64,000 nucleotides of DNA from Chitinophagales bacterium (GCA_038208485.1 JBBQYS010000002.1:13323-77322), one strand, 5' to 3'; positions 2,226-41,025 are shown, counted from the first letter of the stretch. A program made the numbers and translations. The notes: generated by a model from the sequence alone, not told the origin.

Positions 2226-3371
2226 ATGATGAACATAAACACTGAAGAACTAATTGCTTTTCGCAGAGACCTGCACAAACATCCAGAATTAAGCGGGATG
2301 GAAGAAAAAACTGCTGAAAAAATCTATACTTTCCTGATAGATCAGCAACCGTCGCATATCATTAAAAATATTGGCGGCTATGGCATTATAGCTACCTGGG
2401 AAGGAAAAGAAGCCGGTAAACACATTATGATCCGTGCAGATTTTGATGCCTTACCAATTTTTGAGATCAATGATTTTTCTCATCGATCGGTGCAGGAAAA
2501 TGTTTCTCATAAATGCGGACATGATGGGCATGCAACTATACTTTGTGGTGTAGCAGCACAGCTGCATAAAAAAGGTTTGGAGTCAGGGAAAGTAAGCCTG
2601 CTTTTTCAGCCGGCAGAAGAAACCGGAGAAGGAGCAAAGGCCATGCTGGCAGATAAACATTTTCCTAAAGACAAATATGATTTTGTATTTGCCCTGCACA
2701 ATCTTCCAGGTTTACCATTGCATGAGATTATAGTAAAGGAACAAAGTTTTACTCCCTCAGTAACTAGTATTATTATTTCCCTGAAAGGTAAAACTTCGCA
2801 TGCGGCGGAGCCGGAACATGGAACAAATCCCTGCCTGGCCATTGCTGACATTATGCAAAAAGTAATGAAGCTCCAATATAATTTTCCGGCAGAGGATGAC
2901 ATGATCGTGATAGCACCTGTGCACATAGAAGCAGGTGAAAAAGCTTACGGGGTTAGCGCTGGTGCCGGAAGTGTTCATTTTACCATAAGATGTTGGACAC
3001 AGAATAAACTGGAATCACTTCAAGCAAATATTGAGGAGATAAGCAGAAGGGTGGCAGAAAGATATCAGCTGGAAATAAGTTTTGAGTACACAGATTCTTT
3101 TGTAGCCAACTTCAACAACAGCAGAGCACTCAGTTTTGTAAAAGAAGCAGCACTACAAAAAGAACTTTCATTAACCGAAATTAAAACAGGCTTTAAGTGG
3201 GGAGAAGATTTCGGGCTTTTCTCTCATAAATACAGGGGCTGTATGTTTGGTATCGGCAGCGGAGAAAATTGTCCTGCGTTACACAATCCCGATTATGATT
3301 TTCCTGATGAGGTCATAGATACAGGGGTAAAAATATTTTTCGGTATAATAGAAGAAAGTGTAAAGAGCTGA
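2226..3371 (+). CDS. M20D family amidohydrolase (N-acyl-amino-acid deacylase / hippurate hydrolase type)
   Basis: HKCGHDGH metal-ligand motif, QPAEETGEGA, 381 aa. Starts immediately after the GNAT stop. Confidence 0.8.
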   Translation: MMNINTEELIAFRRDLHKHPELSGMEEKTAEKIYTFLIDQQPSHIIKNIGGYGIIATWEGKEAGKHIMIRADFDALPIFEINDFSHRSVQENVSHKCGHDGHATILCGVAAQLHKKGLESGKVSLLFQPAEETGEGAKAMLADKHFPKDKYDFVFALHNLPGLPLHEIIVKEQSFTPSVTSIIISLKGKTSHAAEPEHGTNPCLAIADIMQKVMKLQYNFPAEDDMIVIAPVHIEAGEKAYGVSAGAGSVHFTIRCWTQNKLESLQANIEEISRRVAERYQLEISFEYTDSFVANFNNSRALSFVKEAALQKELSLTEIKTGFKWGEDFGLFSHKYRGCMFGIGSGENCPALHNPDYDFPDEVIDTGVKIFFGIIEESVKS

Positions 3372-29497: not shown

Positions 29498-29521
29498 AAA
29501 ATTTTTATTGTTGTTTAAAAT

Positions 29522-29896
29522 TTATTCCTCCTTTCTCCTCACCACTAAATACCAATCATTCTCCAATGGCAGGTATCCATGATCGTAACAGAAATAATAT
29601 ACCTGTCCTTTTTTGTTGGTGTAGCTGTGTGTACCATACTTAAACATAAATCCTTTTTGCAAAAGTTTTTCATGGTTTATTTTGCCCATTTCTTCTCCGG
29701 AAGGAATTACTGATTCCAGTATTCTCCTGTTCTTTCCCAAAGCATTATTTATGTTCCTTACCATGTTAGTGGTAGAGGCTTTCAGGCTATTGTTGTAATT
29801 ATTCCTGCAATAATCATCACAGAATTTTTTGTCGGATCTGCCTTTTACAGGTTTGCTGCAACTGAGGCAAAGTGTTGGGGTAATAAGCGTAGACAT
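29522..29896 (-). CDS. zinc-ribbon protein of unknown function
   Basis: Internal ATG 29896 gives MSTLITPTLCLSCSKPVKGRSDKKFCDDYCRNNYNN (CxxC...CxxxC). The upstream 40 codons of the track ORF read through repeat-rich promoter DNA. Confidence 0.6.
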   Translation of the reverse strand: MSTLITPTLCLSCSKPVKGRSDKKFCDDYCRNNYNNSLKASTTNMVRNINNALGKNRRILESVIPSGEEMGKINHEKLLQKGFMFKYGTHSYTNKKGQVYYFCYDHGYLPLENDWYLVVRRKEE

Positions 29897-30114
29897 AAGC
29901 TGGTTAAGGTTTACAGACGACAATATACAACTATTTATCAATGTACAACCGTTTACAAACGGATATATACAACTATAAACGAATAAGATACGAGTACCGC
30001 TTTTCGGCAGGGCCATCTTTGCATTGTCAATCGGTTGAAACGGCTGATGACTGAAATAAAGAAATCTTAACCGGCGAAATTCTTAAAACACGAATCAGCC
30101 ACAAAACGAAAATT

Positions 30115-30459
30115 ATGTACGCATTAAAAAACAAAGTTCAATTGATTGGTAACCTGGGCAGCGCACCAGAAGTAAGGACAACAGAAAATGGAAAAAAACT
30201 TGTTAGGTTTTCTGTAGCCACAAATGAAGTGTACAAAAACGCCTCAGGTGAAAAAGTAAAAGAGACCCAATGGCATAATATCATTGCCTGGGGTTCACTG
30301 GCAGACATTGCAGAAAAATACCTGACCAAGGGAAGTGAGATAGCCCTCGAAGGAAAATTGATGAACAGAAACTATACAGACAAGGAAGGGAACAAAAAAT
30401 ACATTACCGAGATACAAGCCAGTGAGTTATTGATGCTGGGTGCAAAATCTGTAGCCTGA
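30115..30459 (+). CDS. ssb: single-stranded DNA-binding protein, short form without acidic C-terminal tip (copy 1)
   Basis: OB-fold pattern NKVQLIGNLG..PEVR....G...VRFSVAT....WHNIIAWG..AE...KYLTKGS.IALEGKL..R.Y.DKEG. Ends ...LMLGAKSVA with no DDDIPF-type tail. Confidence 0.9.
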   Translation: MYALKNKVQLIGNLGSAPEVRTTENGKKLVRFSVATNEVYKNASGEKVKETQWHNIIAWGSLADIAEKYLTKGSEIALEGKLMNRNYTDKEGNKKYITEIQASELLMLGAKSVA

Positions 30460-30467
30460 TGAAGTCT

Positions 30468-30502
30468 CCGGAAATTGGAGGAGATATACTTTGCAATTTC
30501 CG
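30468..30502 (+). terminator. hairpin after ssb copy 1 (weak or partial terminator)
   Basis: CCGGAAATTG - 15 nt - CAATTTCCGG; no clean T-run. Confidence 0.4.
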
Positions 30503-30604
30503 GAATTCTACTAATTAAAAAAAAGCCGTTGCTTAAAAAACCACCTTTAAAAATATATTAATCGGCGAAATTCTTAAACACGAATCAGCCACAAAACGAA
30601 AATC

Positions 30605-30949
30605 ATGTACGCATTAAAAAACAAAGTTCAATTGATTGGTAACCTGGGCAGCGCACCAGAAGTAAGGACAACAGAAAATGGAAAAAAGCTGGTGAGGTTT
30701 TCTGTAGCCACAAATGAAGTGTACAAAAACGCCTCAGGCGAAAAAGTAAAAGAAACGCAATGGCACAATATCATTGCCTGGGGTTCACTGGCTGACATTG
30801 CAGAAAAATACCTGACTAAGGGAAGTGAGATAGCTCTTGAAGGAAAATTGATGAACAGAAACTATACAGACAAGGAAGGGAACAAAAAATACATAACCGA
30901 GATACAAGCAAGCGAGTTATTGATGCTTGGTGCAAAATCTGTAGCCTGA
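30605..30949 (+). CDS. ssb: single-stranded DNA-binding protein (copy 2, identical protein)
   Basis: The 114-aa product is identical to copy 1. The DNA differs at 15 third-codon positions. Confidence 0.9.
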   Translation: MYALKNKVQLIGNLGSAPEVRTTENGKKLVRFSVATNEVYKNASGEKVKETQWHNIIAWGSLADIAEKYLTKGSEIALEGKLMNRNYTDKEGNKKYITEIQASELLMLGAKSVA

Positions 30950-30962
30950 CACAACACTACGA

Positions 30963-30996
30963 AAAAACCGTTCCAAAACTATGGCGGTTTTTTCTT
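30963..30996 (+). terminator. rho-independent terminator after ssb copy 2
   Basis: AAAAACCGTTCCA-AAACTA-TGGCGGTTTTTTC (stem with a TT bulge, then a T-run). Confidence 0.6.
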
Positions 30997-31101
30997 TTCT
31001 TGTTCAATTACCGGTTCGGAAAATAATATGAACTTACCTTTATTGTAAAGCTTAATGATAATTGTAAATAGCTTTGACTTTAGCGAAAAAACTAGCATAC
31101 T

Positions 31102-33585
31102 ATGAGTGAAATGATGGCGATAGAGAGAAATGAAATGTTTGACCTTGCCTTTAAATTTGTTACAGAAACAAATGAAAATATTTTTCTGACTGGTAAAGCG
31201 GGTACAGGTAAAACGACTTTTCTAAAATACCTGCAAAATAATTGCGCCAAGAACATGATCATAGCTGCTCCTACGGGTGTCGCAGCCATAAATGCCGGCG
31301 GTGTAACGCTACATAGTTTGTTTCACCTGCCTTTTCATCCTTTTATTCCGAGTCAAAACGGAAAAAATGAATTGTTGGCTAAGCTGAGGTATAACAAACA
31401 GAAACAGGACCTGCTTCGCAAAATGGAAATCCTGGTAATAGATGAGATAAGTATGGTAAGGGCAGACGTGATGGATGAGATTGATACGATTCTGCGTAGT
31501 GTAAGGCGAAATCATGCTGAACCATTTGGTGGAGTACAATTATTATGTATTGGCGACCTGCATCAGCTGCCACCAGTTGCACAACATCATGAGTGGAGTA
31601 TTTTACAGGATTATTACAGCACACCTTTCTTCTTTGATAGCCTTGCGGTAAAAGAACAAATACCGTTGCTTATAGAACTTGACAAGATCTACAGACAAAA
31701 AGAGGATGTTTTTATCCGGCTCCTAAACAAAGTCAGGAACAACCAGATGGATCAAGACGATCTCGAGGATTTGAACATGCGTTTTGATCCATCATTCATA
31801 CCTGGCATAAATGAGGGTTATATCACGCTGACTTCTCATAATAAGCAAGCAGACCTCATTAACCAGGTTGAGCTGAATAAACTAACGGACGTTAGTTTTA
31901 TATATAAAGCAGAAATAGATGGCGATTTCCCCGAATCTGCATTTCCTGCTGAAAAAGAGCTGGAATTAAAAGCGGGTTCGCAGGTCATGTTCCTAAAGAA
32001 TGACGTAGTTCAAAAAAGGTATTTTAATGGGAAGATAGGAACAGTGAAATCACTAAATGATACGACCATTATAGTAACCTGTAATGGAACAGATATAACA
32101 GTAGCCAAAGAAACCTGGGAAAACAGCAGGTATAAACTGAATAGGGAAGATGGCAAACTGGAACAGGAAAACCTGGGTAATTTTATACAATACCCGCTTA
32201 GGCTTGCCTGGGCTATCACCATACACAAAAGTCAGGGCCTCACATTTGACCACTTGATGATAGATGCGAGTTCTTCGTTCAGCAGCGGACAGGTATATGT
32301 AGCGCTAAGCAGATGCACGAGCCTGGAGGGAATTAAATTGTTGACAAAAATTCCATCAACAGCCATAAAAAGCAATGACCTGATAGTGAAAGGTCAGCAG
32401 AACTTAAAACATAAAGGTTCCCTTGCAGAGCGATTTGAAGGTGCAAGACAATTATTTACCCAACAAATCATAGAACAGGTATTTGTGGCTGTACCAACTG
32501 TACAATCTTTACAAAACCTGGTCGCATTAATAAATTTTCATTTACCTAAGCTCAACCCAGCAGCTGCAGACTTTATCCGGGATCTTTCGCCTGCAATAAG
32601 TAAACTACAGGGAGTTGGAAAGAAATTTTATAACTCCATCTGTCTCTTATTAAAAGAGAATCCTTTGATCGAACAAAATACAGTCACTCAGCAAAGGATT
32701 AAGGATGCTGCAGTATGGTTTCTTCCAAATTGGCTAGAGGTTAATAAAATGATAGAGCAGAATCAAATCTCTACTGAGCTTCGTGAAACAGCCACGCCAA
32801 TAAATGAAGCGCTTGTTGAGCTGTATTTGATTGTTCACCAGCTTATTTACCAATTAGAATATTGTAAATCGGGCTTTGGGTTAAGTTCATTTCTCCACCA
32901 TAAGATACAATATGCTACGCCAAAAACTTCCTTAAACATATACGCTTCAGCCAAAAACAGGCAAGGGAATTCCTTGGAAGAAAATGAGTTATTGGATACT
33001 TTGTTCCGTTGGAGAGACCATGAAGTTCAGGATACCGGTCTGCCTATCTATATGGTTTGCAACCAGACTACATTAAAGGAGATCAGCGAATTCAGGCCTC
33101 TAAATAAAAAAGACCTTTTGAAGATAAAAGGCTTTGGTGGCGGAAAAGTAGCCAAGTATGGCGATGAGATACTGGAAATGGTGAGTGATTACTGCGAGAG
33201 AACGGGTTTGGAGACAAATATGAAAGCAATTGGGAAATCTAAGCAAGAAACTGTGAAAAGGGCAACAAAAGTCAAAACGCCAACTCATGTTATCAGTTAC
33301 CAGCTTTTCCAGGAAGGAAGATCTATCGATGAAATTGCCTTAGAAAGAAGTTTTGCTGCATCTACTATAGAAGGTCACTTGTTTAAATATGTTCAATTAG
33401 GTGAAATGAAGCTTGAGGACTTAATTGACCCGAAAAAAATAGAACTCGTGAAAACAGATTTCGAGAAATTTGGCCTCGAAGGTGGTTTTGTAAGTGCAAA
33501 AGACAGACTAGGTGAGGCTGTAAGTTTCAACGACCTTAGAATGGTAGTTACTTACCTGAAAGACAAAACAAAGCAAGACCAATAA
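31102..33585 (+). CDS. Pif1/RecD-like SF1B DNA helicase with C-terminal HRDC-like and HTH-like domains
   Basis: Walker A GKAGTGKTT, Walker B VIDEISMV, IHKSQGLTFD and VALSRC motifs. HRDC-like LKEISEFRPLNKKDLLKIKGFGGGKV; C-terminal HTH-like SIDEIALERSFAASTIEGHL. Confidence 0.8.
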   Translation: MSEMMAIERNEMFDLAFKFVTETNENIFLTGKAGTGKTTFLKYLQNNCAKNMIIAAPTGVAAINAGGVTLHSLFHLPFHPFIPSQNGKNELLAKLRYNKQKQDLLRKMEILVIDEISMVRADVMDEIDTILRSVRRNHAEPFGGVQLLCIGDLHQLPPVAQHHEWSILQDYYSTPFFFDSLAVKEQIPLLIELDKIYRQKEDVFIRLLNKVRNNQMDQDDLEDLNMRFDPSFIPGINEGYITLTSHNKQADLINQVELNKLTDVSFIYKAEIDGDFPESAFPAEKELELKAGSQVMFLKNDVVQKRYFNGKIGTVKSLNDTTIIVTCNGTDITVAKETWENSRYKLNREDGKLEQENLGNFIQYPLRLAWAITIHKSQGLTFDHLMIDASSSFSSGQVYVALSRCTSLEGIKLLTKIPSTAIKSNDLIVKGQQNLKHKGSLAERFEGARQLFTQQIIEQVFVAVPTVQSLQNLVALINFHLPKLNPAAADFIRDLSPAISKLQGVGKKFYNSICLLLKENPLIEQNTVTQQRIKDAAVWFLPNWLEVNKMIEQNQISTELRETATPINEALVELYLIVHQLIYQLEYCKSGFGLSSFLHHKIQYATPKTSLNIYASAKNRQGNSLEENELLDTLFRWRDHEVQDTGLPIYMVCNQTTLKEISEFRPLNKKDLLKIKGFGGGKVAKYGDEILEMVSDYCERTGLETNMKAIGKSKQETVKRATKVKTPTHVISYQLFQEGRSIDEIALERSFAASTIEGHLFKYVQLGEMKLEDLIDPKKIELVKTDFEKFGLEGGFVSAKDRLGEAVSFNDLRMVVTYLKDKTKQDQ

Positions 33586-40428: not shown

Positions 40429-40534
40429 AATATGTATTAATACTTATTATTTATATAATCCCTTATTATTACTAGGGCTGTTAATATGTGGGAAAACAAT
40501 TTTCTGCCACTATTGTAAAATTAAATTATTTAGT

Positions 40535-40564
40535 TTATCCACGGTTATTCACCGGAAATCCACA
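40535..40564 (+). promoter_or_regulatory. three tandem DnaA-box-like 9-mers in helical phase
   Basis: TTATCCACG (40535), TTATTCACC (40545) and AAATCCACA (40556), compared with consensus TTATCCACA. Start spacing is 10 and 11 bp. Confidence 0.45.
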
Positions 40565-40703
40565 AAAATTTTCCGGTGAAGCCGATTATTTTTTAAAATA
40601 AATTTGGCTTGTTTAAAACCTGAACTGGACTGAATCTAATTAAATATAAACTCATTTTTTGTTTTGGCTCTTTGAAGCTATTCAAAAAAAACTTTTCCTT
40701 TTC

Positions 40704-40712
40704 TGTGGATTA
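40704..40712 (-). promoter_or_regulatory. DnaA-box-like 9-mer (TAATCCACA)
   Basis: Plus strand TGTGGATTA; one mismatch to consensus. Confidence 0.4.
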
Positions 40713-40825
40713 ATTATACCGTGGAAAGAAATTTCACCGCTCCCGACATTATGGCTGTGGAGAGGAGGACGTAAAAATCGTAGTTAATTACCACTAATAA
40801 TTTTAGCAGGCAGATACTGCTGCAT

Positions 40826-40834
40826 TTATCCTCA
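40826..40834 (+). promoter_or_regulatory. DnaA-box-like 9-mer (TTATCCTCA)
   Basis: One mismatch to TTATCCACA. Confidence 0.35.
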
Positions 40835-41025
40835 AACTACTGACGACAAAAAAAATAGAAAAAGGGCTTGTTAACAGAAAAATGGTGGATGTACACATGG
40901 GGTGTGAATAGCGAAAAAAAATGATTTTTTTGTCTAAAAACAGACTATCTCAAATAGGAAAGATTTTCCATTTATGCTACCAGGCTGATTTTACATGCTT
41001 GTAAAAATATTTAAGACCTTGCATT

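What the first reader, a model, noticed from the sequence alone, without database searches (positions are those of the whole stretch)
30067..30949. Duplicated ssb genes: 15 nucleotide differences, all synonymous
Segments 30067-30459 and 30558-30949 each contain a ~48-nt leader plus the 345-nt CDS, separated by a 98-bp unique spacer. The CDSs differ at 15 third-codon positions: aaa/aag, ctt/ctg, gtt/gtg, ggt/ggc, gag/gaa, acc/acg, cat/cac, gca/gct, acc/act, gcc/gct, ctc/ctt, att/ata, gcc/gca, agt/agc and ctg/ctt. The proteins are identical. If roughly a quarter of random coding changes are synonymous, 15 out of 15 has a probability near 1e-9. Both copies are therefore under strong purifying selection and have not been homogenised by gene conversion. 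The leaders are also conserved (2 substitutions and 1 indel), but the 3' flanks and terminators are unrelated.
Basis: seen in the sequence. Interest (0 to 1): 0.6.

Follow-up and report, generated by a model that had tools for sequence, protein, structure and literature searches.

The report
Tandem pair of tail-less ssb genes
Two adjacent genes in a soil Chitinophagaceae genome encode the same short single-stranded-DNA-binding protein and differ only at 15 silent positions; this is a real gene pair under ordinary strong selection, and it was probably kept alike by occasional copying between the two genes.

Summary
Two 345-nt ssb genes (30115-30459 and 30605-30949) encode identical 114-aa proteins. 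They differ at 15 third-codon positions (dS 0.24, dN 0). Each has a 47-48-nt conserved leader. A 98-nt spacer, unique in the genome, separates the units, and the 3' flanks are unrelated. Independent contigs from three studies carry both copy types, and one contig bridges copy A, the spacer and copy B, so this is not an assembly artefact.

The protein is a tail-less SSB paralogue. It has a complete OB fold but no linker or acidic tip. It sits between a small zinc-ribbon-like gene and a Pif1/HRDC helicase gene. Two tailed SSBs lie elsewhere in the genome.

The 15:0 pattern rejects neutrality (8e-11). It is still ordinary for this gene: single-copy orthologues evolve at omega 0.004-0.055, so 0.9-3.6 replacements were expected.

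"Not homogenised by gene conversion" is probably wrong over the long term. Of 201 congeners, only three carry head-to-tail pairs. These three form a 100/99 clade in a UvrB tree, yet each genome's copies are sisters and positional orthology is rejected. This fits an ancestral pair under concerted evolution better than three separate duplications.

Earlier scan notes record the tail-less SSB beside a Pif1 helicase in other genomes. Interest is low to moderate.

The parts
29522..29896 (-). Small zinc-ribbon-like gene (CxxC...KKFCDDYCRNNYNN), transcribed divergently from ssb. The 164-aa ORF running to 30016 is probably over-called; orthologues start at the internal Met, giving about 124 aa.
   Evidence: ORF list. 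Orthologues of 123-125 aa lie at the same position in G020, G008 and G005. tblastn gives 49-75% identity in G075, G074, G216 and G198. No Pfam or NCBIfam match.
29909..29976 (.). Conserved intergenic block with 26-nt direct repeats and the palindrome CCGTTTACAAACGG. Candidate operator or promoter region of the divergent gene pair.
   Evidence: Direct repeat family D3. About 44 nt are 89-91% identical to G020 and G008, although other intergenic DNA between these species is unalignable.
30014..30021 (+). Putative Bacteroidota-type -7 promoter box (CATCTTTG) for copy A. It lies upstream of the duplicated unit.
   Evidence: Read from the sequence. The motif xxTCTTTG/CTTTTG is kept at the same relative place in G020, G008, G017 and L048. 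Its function is inferred, not tested.
30067..30114 (+). Leader of copy A (48 nt); start of repeat unit 1.
   Evidence: Differs from leader B by 2 substitutions and 1 indel. This is fewer than expected at the synonymous rate (P = 0.006).
30115..30459 (+). ssb copy A: tail-less SSB, 114 aa.
   Evidence: Pfam PF00436, 1.3e-34. TIGR00621, 128.9 bits against a cut-off of 53.95. Aromatic ssDNA-contact positions and the His55 equivalent are kept when aligned to E. coli SSB 1eyg.
30460..30557 (+). Unique 98-nt spacer. It contains an 11-bp hairpin (30467-30504) with no U-tract and a CTTTGCA motif (30489-30495) resembling the -7 box upstream of copy A.
   Evidence: Unique in the genome. Fold -20.1 kcal/mol, z = -2.3, with no U run after the stem. 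No terminator-like site was scored.
30558..30604 (+). Leader of copy B (47 nt); start of repeat unit 2.
30605..30949 (+). ssb copy B: protein identical to copy A, with 15 synonymous differences.
30961..31000 (+). A-tract, hairpin and U-tract: the likely intrinsic terminator of the ssb transcript or transcripts.
   Evidence: Fold -17.1 kcal/mol; stem AAAAAACCG...CGGUUUUUU followed by CUUUUC. The simple scanner did not score it because the stem is bulged.
31102..33585 (+). Pif1-family SF1B helicase with C-terminal HRDC and HTH_40 domains (827 aa). It is the conserved downstream neighbour.
   Evidence: Pfam PIF1 1.1e-29, HRDC 1e-17, HTH_40 3.4e-20. Synteny is kept in G020, G008, G017, G075, G074 and G216.

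Best explanation
The locus is a genuine head-to-tail pair of functional genes for a tail-less SSB paralogue. The protein is an OB-fold-only, presumably homotetrameric ssDNA binder that cannot recruit partners through an acidic tip. This paralogue is single-copy in most congeners and always sits between a small zinc-ribbon-like gene and a Pif1/HRDC helicase gene.

The second copy most likely serves gene dosage. Both genes give the same subunit for one tetramer pool. Copy A is read from the conserved ancestral promoter. The hairpin after copy A has no U-tract, so transcription probably reads through into copy B and stops at the terminator after B. Copy B may also have a promoter of its own in the spacer.

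The pair is probably old. It appears to be shared by a three-species clade and to have been re-homogenised from time to time by gene conversion or unequal crossing-over, confined to the selected leader plus coding sequence. The last homogenisation in this lineage lies about 0.24 synonymous substitutions per site back. Since then, only silent changes have survived, because the gene evolves at omega of about 0.01-0.05.

Shown: the duplication is real; the proteins are identical; selection is purifying; synteny is conserved; the tandem state is restricted to one clade; the copies within each genome are sisters.

Inferred: the dosage role; co-transcription; gene conversion rather than re-duplication; any functional link with the helicase.
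For: - The sequence facts hold.
- Independent contigs from three studies hold both copy types, and one contig bridges A, the spacer and B.
- The protein is a full SSB domain with the aromatic and His positions kept but no tail. Tailed SSBs lie elsewhere in the genome.
- The tail-less gene is present in 169 of 201 congeners, nearly always as a single copy in the same synteny.
- Background omega is 0.004-0.055, so 15:0 is what is expected.
- Head-to-tail pairs occur only in G000, G020 and G008 among the 201 genomes, plus the G020-like metagenome contig L048.
- These three genomes form a 100/99 clade in a 24-genome UvrB tree.
- They are also mutual nearest relatives in the ssb gene tree, with 90/92 support.
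- The copies of each genome are sisters (100/98, 100/100, 98/92), and positional orthology is rejected.
- Homology ends at the leader start and at the stop codon, although dS is only 0.24. The spacer and flanks are unalignable. That is the expected footprint of conversion confined to the conserved segment.
- The differences are mildly clustered (P = 0.019), and the 5' 131 nt are nearly identical.
- The copies show no codon-usage asymmetry, so the silent differences look like drift.
- There is a hairpin without a U-tract after A and a canonical terminator after B.
Against: - No expression data exist, so dosage and co-transcription are untested.
- In the G020/L048 lineage the two copies have evolved separately for dS 0.6-1.2 without conversion. 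Conversion is therefore not frequent.
- The repeat-unit boundaries and spacer lengths differ between G000, G008 and G020. G008 also carries a third leader remnant. Independent or repeated duplications would explain these differences as well.
- The species clade rests on one marker tree plus a compatible three-marker tree without an outgroup, and on MAGs.
- Spacer homology between species could not be tested, because even orthologous intergenic DNA is saturated.
- The apparent A/B mosaic in run X2 (B-type letters at 30198, 30201 and 30204) may be a k=31 assembly-graph path switch across the 83-nt identical tract. It is not counted as evidence.
Confidence: 0.55

Rival explanations
1. This is a recent, lineage-specific tandem duplication (age about dS 0.24) with no gene conversion. 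G008 and G020 acquired their pairs by separate duplications at a locus prone to duplicate. The unrelated spacer and 3' flank arose from junction filler or from later indels and replacement.
For: - The copies within each genome are sisters.
- Unit boundaries, periods (490, 562 and 465 nt) and flank content differ among the three genomes.
- G008's unit includes 83 nt of 3' flank, whereas G000's does not.
- Other congeners show further dispersed or nearby second copies, so the gene does duplicate repeatedly.
- The G020/L048 copies show no conversion over a long period.
Against: - It needs three independent events in all three sampled members of one 100/99 clade and none in about 198 other congeners.
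- A simple tandem duplication of this age should leave about 80% identity in the duplicated flank. Instead, homology stops exactly at the stop codon and at the leader start.
Confidence: 0.3
2. One copy is a xenologue. A leader-plus-ssb segment from a closely related species (dS about 0.24 away) was inserted next to the resident gene, so the silent differences built up in two separate lineages.
For: Homology is limited to the leader and coding sequence, with unrelated DNA on the far side of each. The 15:0 pattern equals that of orthologue pairs at the same distance.
Against: - No mobile-element genes, integrase or repeats flank the unit.
- No donor-like sequence closer than 87% amino-acid identity was found in 201 genomes or in the metagenome scan.
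- The same tandem layout recurs in sister species.
- Codon usage is equal in the two copies.
Confidence: 0.07
3. This is an assembly artefact: two strain alleles of a single-copy gene were stitched in tandem in a metagenome-assembled genome.
For: The genome is a 250-contig MAG with 4.4% contamination. The 4% divergence is typical of strain variants.
Against: - A unique 98-nt spacer joins the 3' end of A to the leader of B in an error-free contig made by another assembler.
- k-mer-linked contigs tie A to the upstream flank and B to the downstream flank.
- Both copy types occur in runs from three studies.
- Sister species and a separate metagenome contig carry the same layout.
Confidence: 0.03

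Closest known systems
tufA/tufB of Salmonella and E. coli (duplicate EF-Tu genes evolving in concert by RecA-dependent gene conversion; PMC5485169)
   Same: Two near-identical copies of a highly constrained gene differ by a handful of mostly silent nucleotides. Homology ends at the gene borders, and the copies within a genome are more alike than orthologues are. Conversion cannot extend beyond the region of identity (PMC5485169).
   Different: The tuf genes are 1185 nt long, lie 762 kb apart and are inverted. Here the genes are 345 nt long, in direct tandem and 145 nt apart, so unequal crossing-over and deletion are also possible. Conversion is demonstrated experimentally for tuf; here it is only inferred from phylogeny.
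Long-lasting concerted evolution of prokaryotic paralogues (26 genes; PMC6053082)
   Same: The paralogues group by genome rather than by copy across species. Dosage and membership of a homomeric or complex assembly are proposed as the drivers.
   Different: That paper does not list ssb (no occurrence of 'ssb' or 'single-strand'). It notes that independent tandem duplication remains an alternative for tandem pairs, and the same caveat applies here. Here the synonymous sites are moderately diverged (0.24), not near-identical.
SsbB of Bacillus subtilis (113-aa tail-less competence SSB; PMC3384303) and other second SSBs (S. pneumoniae SsbB, PMC3128108; Streptomyces SsbB, PMC3616714; S. aureus SsbB/SsbC, PMC9084298 and PMC5945547)
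   Same: A second SSB paralogue sits beside an essential tailed SSB. It has an OB fold of about 110 aa and, as in B. subtilis SsbB, no acidic tip, which implies an ssDNA-coating role without partner recruitment.
   Different: It is not an orthologue. The NCBIfam equivalog models for short Firmicute-type SSBs score far below their cut-offs (NF005242, 57 against 189; NF005579, 89 against 169). No link to competence regulation is known. The genomic partner here is a Pif1/HRDC helicase, and the gene is tandemly doubled.
Two-OB-fold SSBs of Deinococcus-Thermus (PDB 1se8, 2fxq, 2cwa, 2ihf)
   Same: These proteins derive from a tandem duplication of an ssb OB-fold unit. The query aligns to their second OB fold.
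   Different: In those proteins the two units are fused into one polypeptide and have diverged. Here the two genes are separate, with a stop codon, a 145-nt intergenic gap and identical products.

Membership tests
Bacterial SSB family (Pfam PF00436 / TIGR00621) | OB-fold domain scoring above the curated cut-off | tested here: met
   PF00436 scores 118.8 bits against a cut-off of 26, covering profile positions 2-103 of 104. TIGR00621 scores 128.9 bits against 53.95.
Bacterial SSB family (Pfam PF00436 / TIGR00621) | Aromatic ssDNA-contact residues (E. coli W40, W54, F60, W88) and the tetramer-interface residue His55 | tested here: met
   Aligned to E. coli SSB 1eyg, the equivalent residues are Y40, W53, W59, Y86 and H54. 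Binding and oligomeric state were not measured.
Canonical replicative SSB (tailed) | Disordered linker plus acidic C-terminal tip (D-D-D-I/L-P-F type) | tested here: not met
   The protein ends ...LLMLGAKSVA directly after the OB fold. The genome's tailed SSBs end DEKLPF and DDGLPF.
Firmicute SsbB-type competence SSB | Equivalog-level sequence match | tested here: not met
   NF005242 scores 57.2 against 189, and NF005579 scores 88.7 against 169.
Firmicute SsbB-type competence SSB | Competence-specific expression and a role in transformation | not testable with these tools
   No RNA run holds the locus.
Concertedly evolving paralogues (tuf-like) | Paralogues within a genome are closer to each other than to orthologues, at synonymous sites as well | tested here: met
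   dS within the pair is 0.24, against at least 1.9 to the nearest species. The sister relationship has 100/98 support.
Concertedly evolving paralogues (tuf-like) | The duplication predates the speciation events | tested here: inconclusive
   All three members of a 100/99 UvrB clade, and no other of about 198 congeners, carry the tandem pair. Positional orthology is rejected. However, spacers and flanks are saturated between species and the unit borders differ.
Concertedly evolving paralogues (tuf-like) | Observed conversion tracts between the copies | tested here: inconclusive
   In run X2, the contig attached to the upstream flank shows B-type letters at 30198, 30201 and 30204. A k=31 graph path switch across the 83-nt identical tract explains this equally well.

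The most novel reading that the evidence does not exclude
The tail-less ssb tandem pair is an ancient feature of a Chitinophagaceae clade. It has been kept identical at the protein level by recurrent gene conversion or unequal crossing-over because the two products co-assemble into one homotetramer, so any divergence would create mixed tetramers (paralogue interference). On this reading the pair provides the stoichiometric ssDNA-coating partner for the neighbouring Pif1/HRDC helicase in a Bacteroidota DNA-transaction module that has not been characterised.
Probability: 0.3. Interest if true: 0.45.

Novelty: new member of a known kind. Interest (0 to 1): 0.27.

Why it matters
The pair is a clean natural example of a very short (345-nt) tandem duplicate retained under full purifying selection. 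It may also be an instance of concerted evolution in a gene family (ssb) that the published survey of concertedly evolving prokaryotic genes (PMC6053082) does not mention.

It also marks the tail-less SSB beside the Pif1/HRDC helicase as a dosage-sensitive component. That module is conserved across Chitinophagaceae, and scan notes record it in other Bacteroidota. I found no experimental description of it in the searchable literature.

For annotation, the result shows that this MAG carries four SSB genes of three kinds, and that the duplication should not be collapsed. None of this changes current understanding of SSB biology or of gene duplication.

Tried and rejected
- No RNA holder was listed for the locus, so expression, co-transcription and differential use of the copies could not be examined.
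- Run X2 has no contig cover over 30371-30705, so nothing can be said about its spacer.
- I first read the X2 'mosaic' at 30198-30207 as a conversion tract. I dropped this as evidence because a k=31 contig cannot be phased across the 83-nt identical tract.
- A C/T marker at the start of the leaders (AACCGGC in A, AATCGGC in B) seemed to be shared by position between G000 and G020. It is reversed in L048, so I rejected it.
- At sites informative in both pairs, G000 and G020 give 1 'same-position' site against 2 'cross' sites, so there is no signal.
- Spacer and flank homology between species is not detectable. The best local alignment has p = 0.04 over 19 nt, and known-orthologous 3' flanks are equally unalignable, so the test has no power.
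- The spacer is not a dispersed repeat.
- Rfam gave no family for the leader or spacer; the only hit was sub-threshold (STnc240, E = 0.22).
- The sigma-70-type promoter scan is uninformative for Bacteroidota.
- Codon-usage comparison shows no asymmetry between the copies.
- The difference-free first 27 codons give P = 0.011 if that location is fixed in advance, but P = 0.20 for a run of that length anywhere, so I do not claim it.
- Literature searches for a described tail-less SSB plus Pif1 module, or for tandem ssb in Bacteroidota, found nothing specific.
- The metagenome scan found no relative closer than 85% amino-acid identity, so the duplication could not be dated with nearer relatives.

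Full report
**1. Observation**

The region was read directly and ORFs were listed.
- Two ORFs, 30115-30459 and 30605-30949 (+ strand), encode the same 114-aa protein.
- A script found exactly 15 nucleotide differences, all at third codon positions and all synonymous (8 transitions, 7 transversions).
- Nei-Gojobori counts are S = 72.7 and N = 269.3, giving pS = 0.206, dS (JC) = 0.241 and dN = 0.
- If substitutions fell at random, the chance that 15 of 15 are synonymous is 8e-11.
- The repeat finder gives a period of 490 nt.
- The leaders (30067-30114 and 30558-30604) differ by two substitutions and one single-base indel.
- The 98-nt spacer (30460-30557) occurs nowhere else in the 3.5-Mb assembly.
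- The genome holds only these two copies of the unit.
- The 3' flanks are not alignable (p = 0.35 against shuffles).

**2. Is it an assembly artefact?**

The genome is a 250-contig MAG, 92% complete with 4.4% contamination, so the question is fair. Eight public runs hold part of the stretch, and contigs from four of them were laid on the locus.

In run X1, which may be the source sample, error-free contigs link three junctions:
- the upstream flank to the 5' end of copy A (29500-30137);
- the 3' end of copy A through the unique spacer into the leader and start of copy B (30397-30631);
- the 3' end of copy B to the downstream flank (30839-30995).

In each case copy-specific sites lie within 31 nt of unique sequence, so these junctions are phased.

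Runs X2 (2016) and X3 (2024) come from other studies. Each holds both A-type and B-type internal segments. Sister species and an unrelated metagenome contig show the same layout. The artefact reading is therefore very unlikely.

One caution applies. In X2, the contig attached to the upstream flank carries B-type letters at 30198, 30201 and 30204. These sites follow an 83-nt tract that is identical in both copies, and a k=31 assembler cannot phase across that tract. I do not count this as a conversion tract.

**3. What the gene is**

- The protein matches Pfam SSB over the full domain (1.3e-34) and passes the TIGR00621 cut-off.
- Aligned to E. coli SSB (1eyg), the four aromatic ssDNA-contact positions are aromatic (Y40, W53, W59, Y86) and the His55 equivalent is present.
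- The protein ends right after the OB fold (...LLMLGAKSVA). It has no linker and no acidic tip.
- The genome has two further SSBs. One is a 141-aa protein next to mutY that ends DEKLPF and is presumably the housekeeping SSB. The other is a divergent 142-aa protein that ends DDGLPF.
- NCBIfam equivalog models for short Firmicute SSBs are far below their cut-offs, so this is not an SsbB orthologue.

The neighbourhood is conserved. A small zinc-ribbon-like gene is transcribed divergently upstream, and an 827-aa Pif1-family helicase with HRDC and HTH_40 domains lies downstream. Earlier notes of this scan record the same tail-less SSB beside a Pif1-like helicase in other genomes. An earlier follow-up report places this genome in the Chitinophagaceae.

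**4. Is the 15:0 pattern special?**

The pattern rejects neutrality, but it is what this gene does everywhere. Close pairs of single-copy orthologues show synonymous:replacement counts of 12:2, 16:1 and 38:1. The tandem pair in G008 shows 17:3. Omega therefore ranges from 0.004 to 0.055.

At dS = 0.241 this predicts 0.9-3.6 replacements, and P(0) is 0.40-0.03. The duplicates are constrained like single-copy orthologues, with no relaxation and no excess constraint that can be demonstrated.

The silent differences show no codon-preference direction. The sum of ln RSCU is 1.23 against 0.59, and the whole-gene geometric means are 1.112 against 1.106.

**5. Distribution**

- Of 201 congeneric genomes, 169 carry the tail-less gene at E <= 1e-38, and 13 carry two copies.
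- Head-to-tail pairs with a period under 600 nt occur only in G000 (490), G020 (465) and G008 (562).
- G005 and G122 share an older arrangement with the zinc-ribbon gene between two diverged copies. Their copies pair up as orthologues across the two genomes (dS about 0.68 for each orthologous pair; dN between the two copies within G005 is 0.216).
- The remaining second copies are further apart on the same contig (G193, about 3.3 kb) or dispersed.
- Among 80 metagenome loci, only L048 has a tandem pair. L048 is a relative of G020: its copy a matches A20 (dN 0.011) and its copy b matches B20 (dN 0.022).

**6. History of the pair**

In ssb gene trees the two copies of each genome are sisters:
- G000: 100/98;
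- G008: 100/100;
- the G020/L048 quartet: 98/92, with A-type and B-type subclades inside it.

All tandem copies together form one clade with 90/92 support. Forcing the copies to group by position is rejected (AU p = 1.5e-45, 6e-6 and 0.002).

G020 is the closest sampled species. Amino-acid identity to G000 is 87% for MnmG and 90% for UvrB. G008 ranks third of 200 genomes by UvrB score.

I built a UvrB tree of 24 genomes. These included the nearest genomes by UvrB score, chosen without regard to ssb copy number. In this tree G000, G020 and G008 form a clade with 100/99 support, and none of the other 21 genomes has the tandem pair. A three-marker tree is compatible with this clade.

Two histories fit these facts:
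- (a) One duplication occurred in the ancestor of the clade. The copies were later homogenised within lineages by gene conversion or unequal crossing-over. This happened long ago in the G020 lineage and more recently in G000 (dS 0.24) and G008 (dS 0.26).
- (b) Three separate duplications occurred at the same locus in all three sampled clade members and in none of about 198 other congeners.

History (a) is more parsimonious. It also explains why homology in G000 stops exactly at the start of the leader and at the stop codon, although the synonymous distance is only 0.24. A simple tandem duplication of that age should leave about 80% identity in whatever flank was copied, and none is found.

Minor observations point the same way, but functional constraint could explain them as well:
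- The leader has 3 differences in 48 nt (P = 0.006 against the synonymous rate).
- The differences cluster in adjacent codons (P = 0.019).
- In G008, the 83 nt of shared 3' flank are 96% identical while the synonymous sites are 22% diverged.

Against (a):
- The repeat-unit borders and spacers differ between the three genomes.
- G008 carries a third leader remnant.
- The G020/L048 copies have not exchanged sequence for a long time.
- Intergenic DNA is saturated between species, so shared junctions cannot be sought.

I put (a) at about 0.55 and (b) at about 0.30.

**7. How it probably works**

- A conserved CATCTTTG box (30014-21), resembling the Bacteroidota -7 promoter element, lies upstream of the repeated unit. 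It is kept in relatives.
- Copy A is followed by an 11-bp hairpin without a U-tract.
- Copy B is followed by an A-tract, hairpin and U-tract terminator.

The simplest reading is one transcript covering both genes, which doubles the output of a single subunit species. A CTTTGCA motif in the spacer (30489-95) may add a promoter for copy B. None of this could be tested, because no RNA run holds the locus.

The biochemical role of the tail-less SSB is inferred only from conserved neighbourhood and from the absence of the acidic tip. It may coat ssDNA for the Pif1/HRDC helicase without recruiting other partners.

**8. Comparison with what is known**

- The closest evolutionary analogue is tufA/tufB, where conversion is confined to the homologous coding sequence (PMC5485169).
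- The broader analogue is the set of long-lasting concertedly evolving prokaryotic paralogues (PMC6053082). That paper does not mention ssb, and it notes the same independent-tandem-duplication caveat for tandem pairs.
- Functionally, the nearest described proteins are second SSBs such as B. subtilis SsbB (PMC3384303), but orthology fails the model cut-offs.
- The two-OB-fold SSBs of Deinococcus-Thermus show what a fused descendant of such a pair looks like.

**9. Verdict**

The purifying-selection reading is right, but the constraint is unremarkable for this gene. The claim that there was no gene conversion is probably wrong on the longer time scale. The pair is a new member of a known kind, and its interest is low to moderate.

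Noticed in passing
window 29909-29976: The intergenic block between the zinc-ribbon gene and ssb copy A holds 26-nt direct repeats 42 nt apart and the palindrome CCGTTTACAAACGG. About 44 nt of it are 89-91% identical in G020 and G008 and recognisable in G017 and L048, although all other intergenic DNA between these species is unalignable. It is probably an operator or promoter element of the divergent pair.
   Followed up: partly
window 29522-30016 (-): The 164-aa ORF is probably over-called at its 5' end. Orthologues in G020, G008 and G005 are 123-125 aa and start at the internal Met, which places the gene at 29522-29896. The protein has a CxxC...KKFCDDYCRNNYNN motif and no Pfam or NCBIfam family.
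   Followed up: partly
L004 1498-1926 (G000 contig C46): The same genome has a third kind of SSB: 142 aa, only 32% identical to the tail-less one, with its own acidic tip (...DDGLPF). Its context and origin (for example a mobile element) were not examined.
   Followed up: no
L023 (G005) 1501-1845 and 2891-3235; L030/L028 (G122): Two congeners share an older two-copy arrangement, ssb - zinc-ribbon gene (opposite strand) - ssb. The copies are strongly diverged (dN 0.216 within G005), and each copy has its orthologue in the other genome (dS about 0.68). This is a stable, non-homogenised paralogue pair, in contrast with the G000 pair.
   Followed up: partly
L008 (G008) about 2060-2140, downstream of the second ssb copy: A third copy of the ssb leader (about 74 nt, 89-91% identical to the other two) lies without a coding sequence ahead of the Pif1 helicase gene. 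It may be a remnant of a three-copy array or of unequal crossing-over.
   Followed up: no
L048 566-680 and 1089-1200: In the metagenome contig, each ssb copy is followed directly after its stop codon by a copy of a structured repeat of about 110 nt (GGCACACGGA...TCCGTGTTGC...GTGCC). It looks like a REP/MITE-like element sitting in the terminator position.
   Followed up: no
G144 contig C3 4074578-4074916: A second tail-less ssb copy lies 72 kb from the first and carries an in-frame TAA. It is possibly a decaying duplicate.
   Followed up: no
window 30115-30949 relative to 40429-41025: The ssb pair lies about 10 kb from the stretch that another first-reader note proposes as oriC (not checked here). 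If that is right, the genes also gain replication-associated dosage.
   Followed up: no
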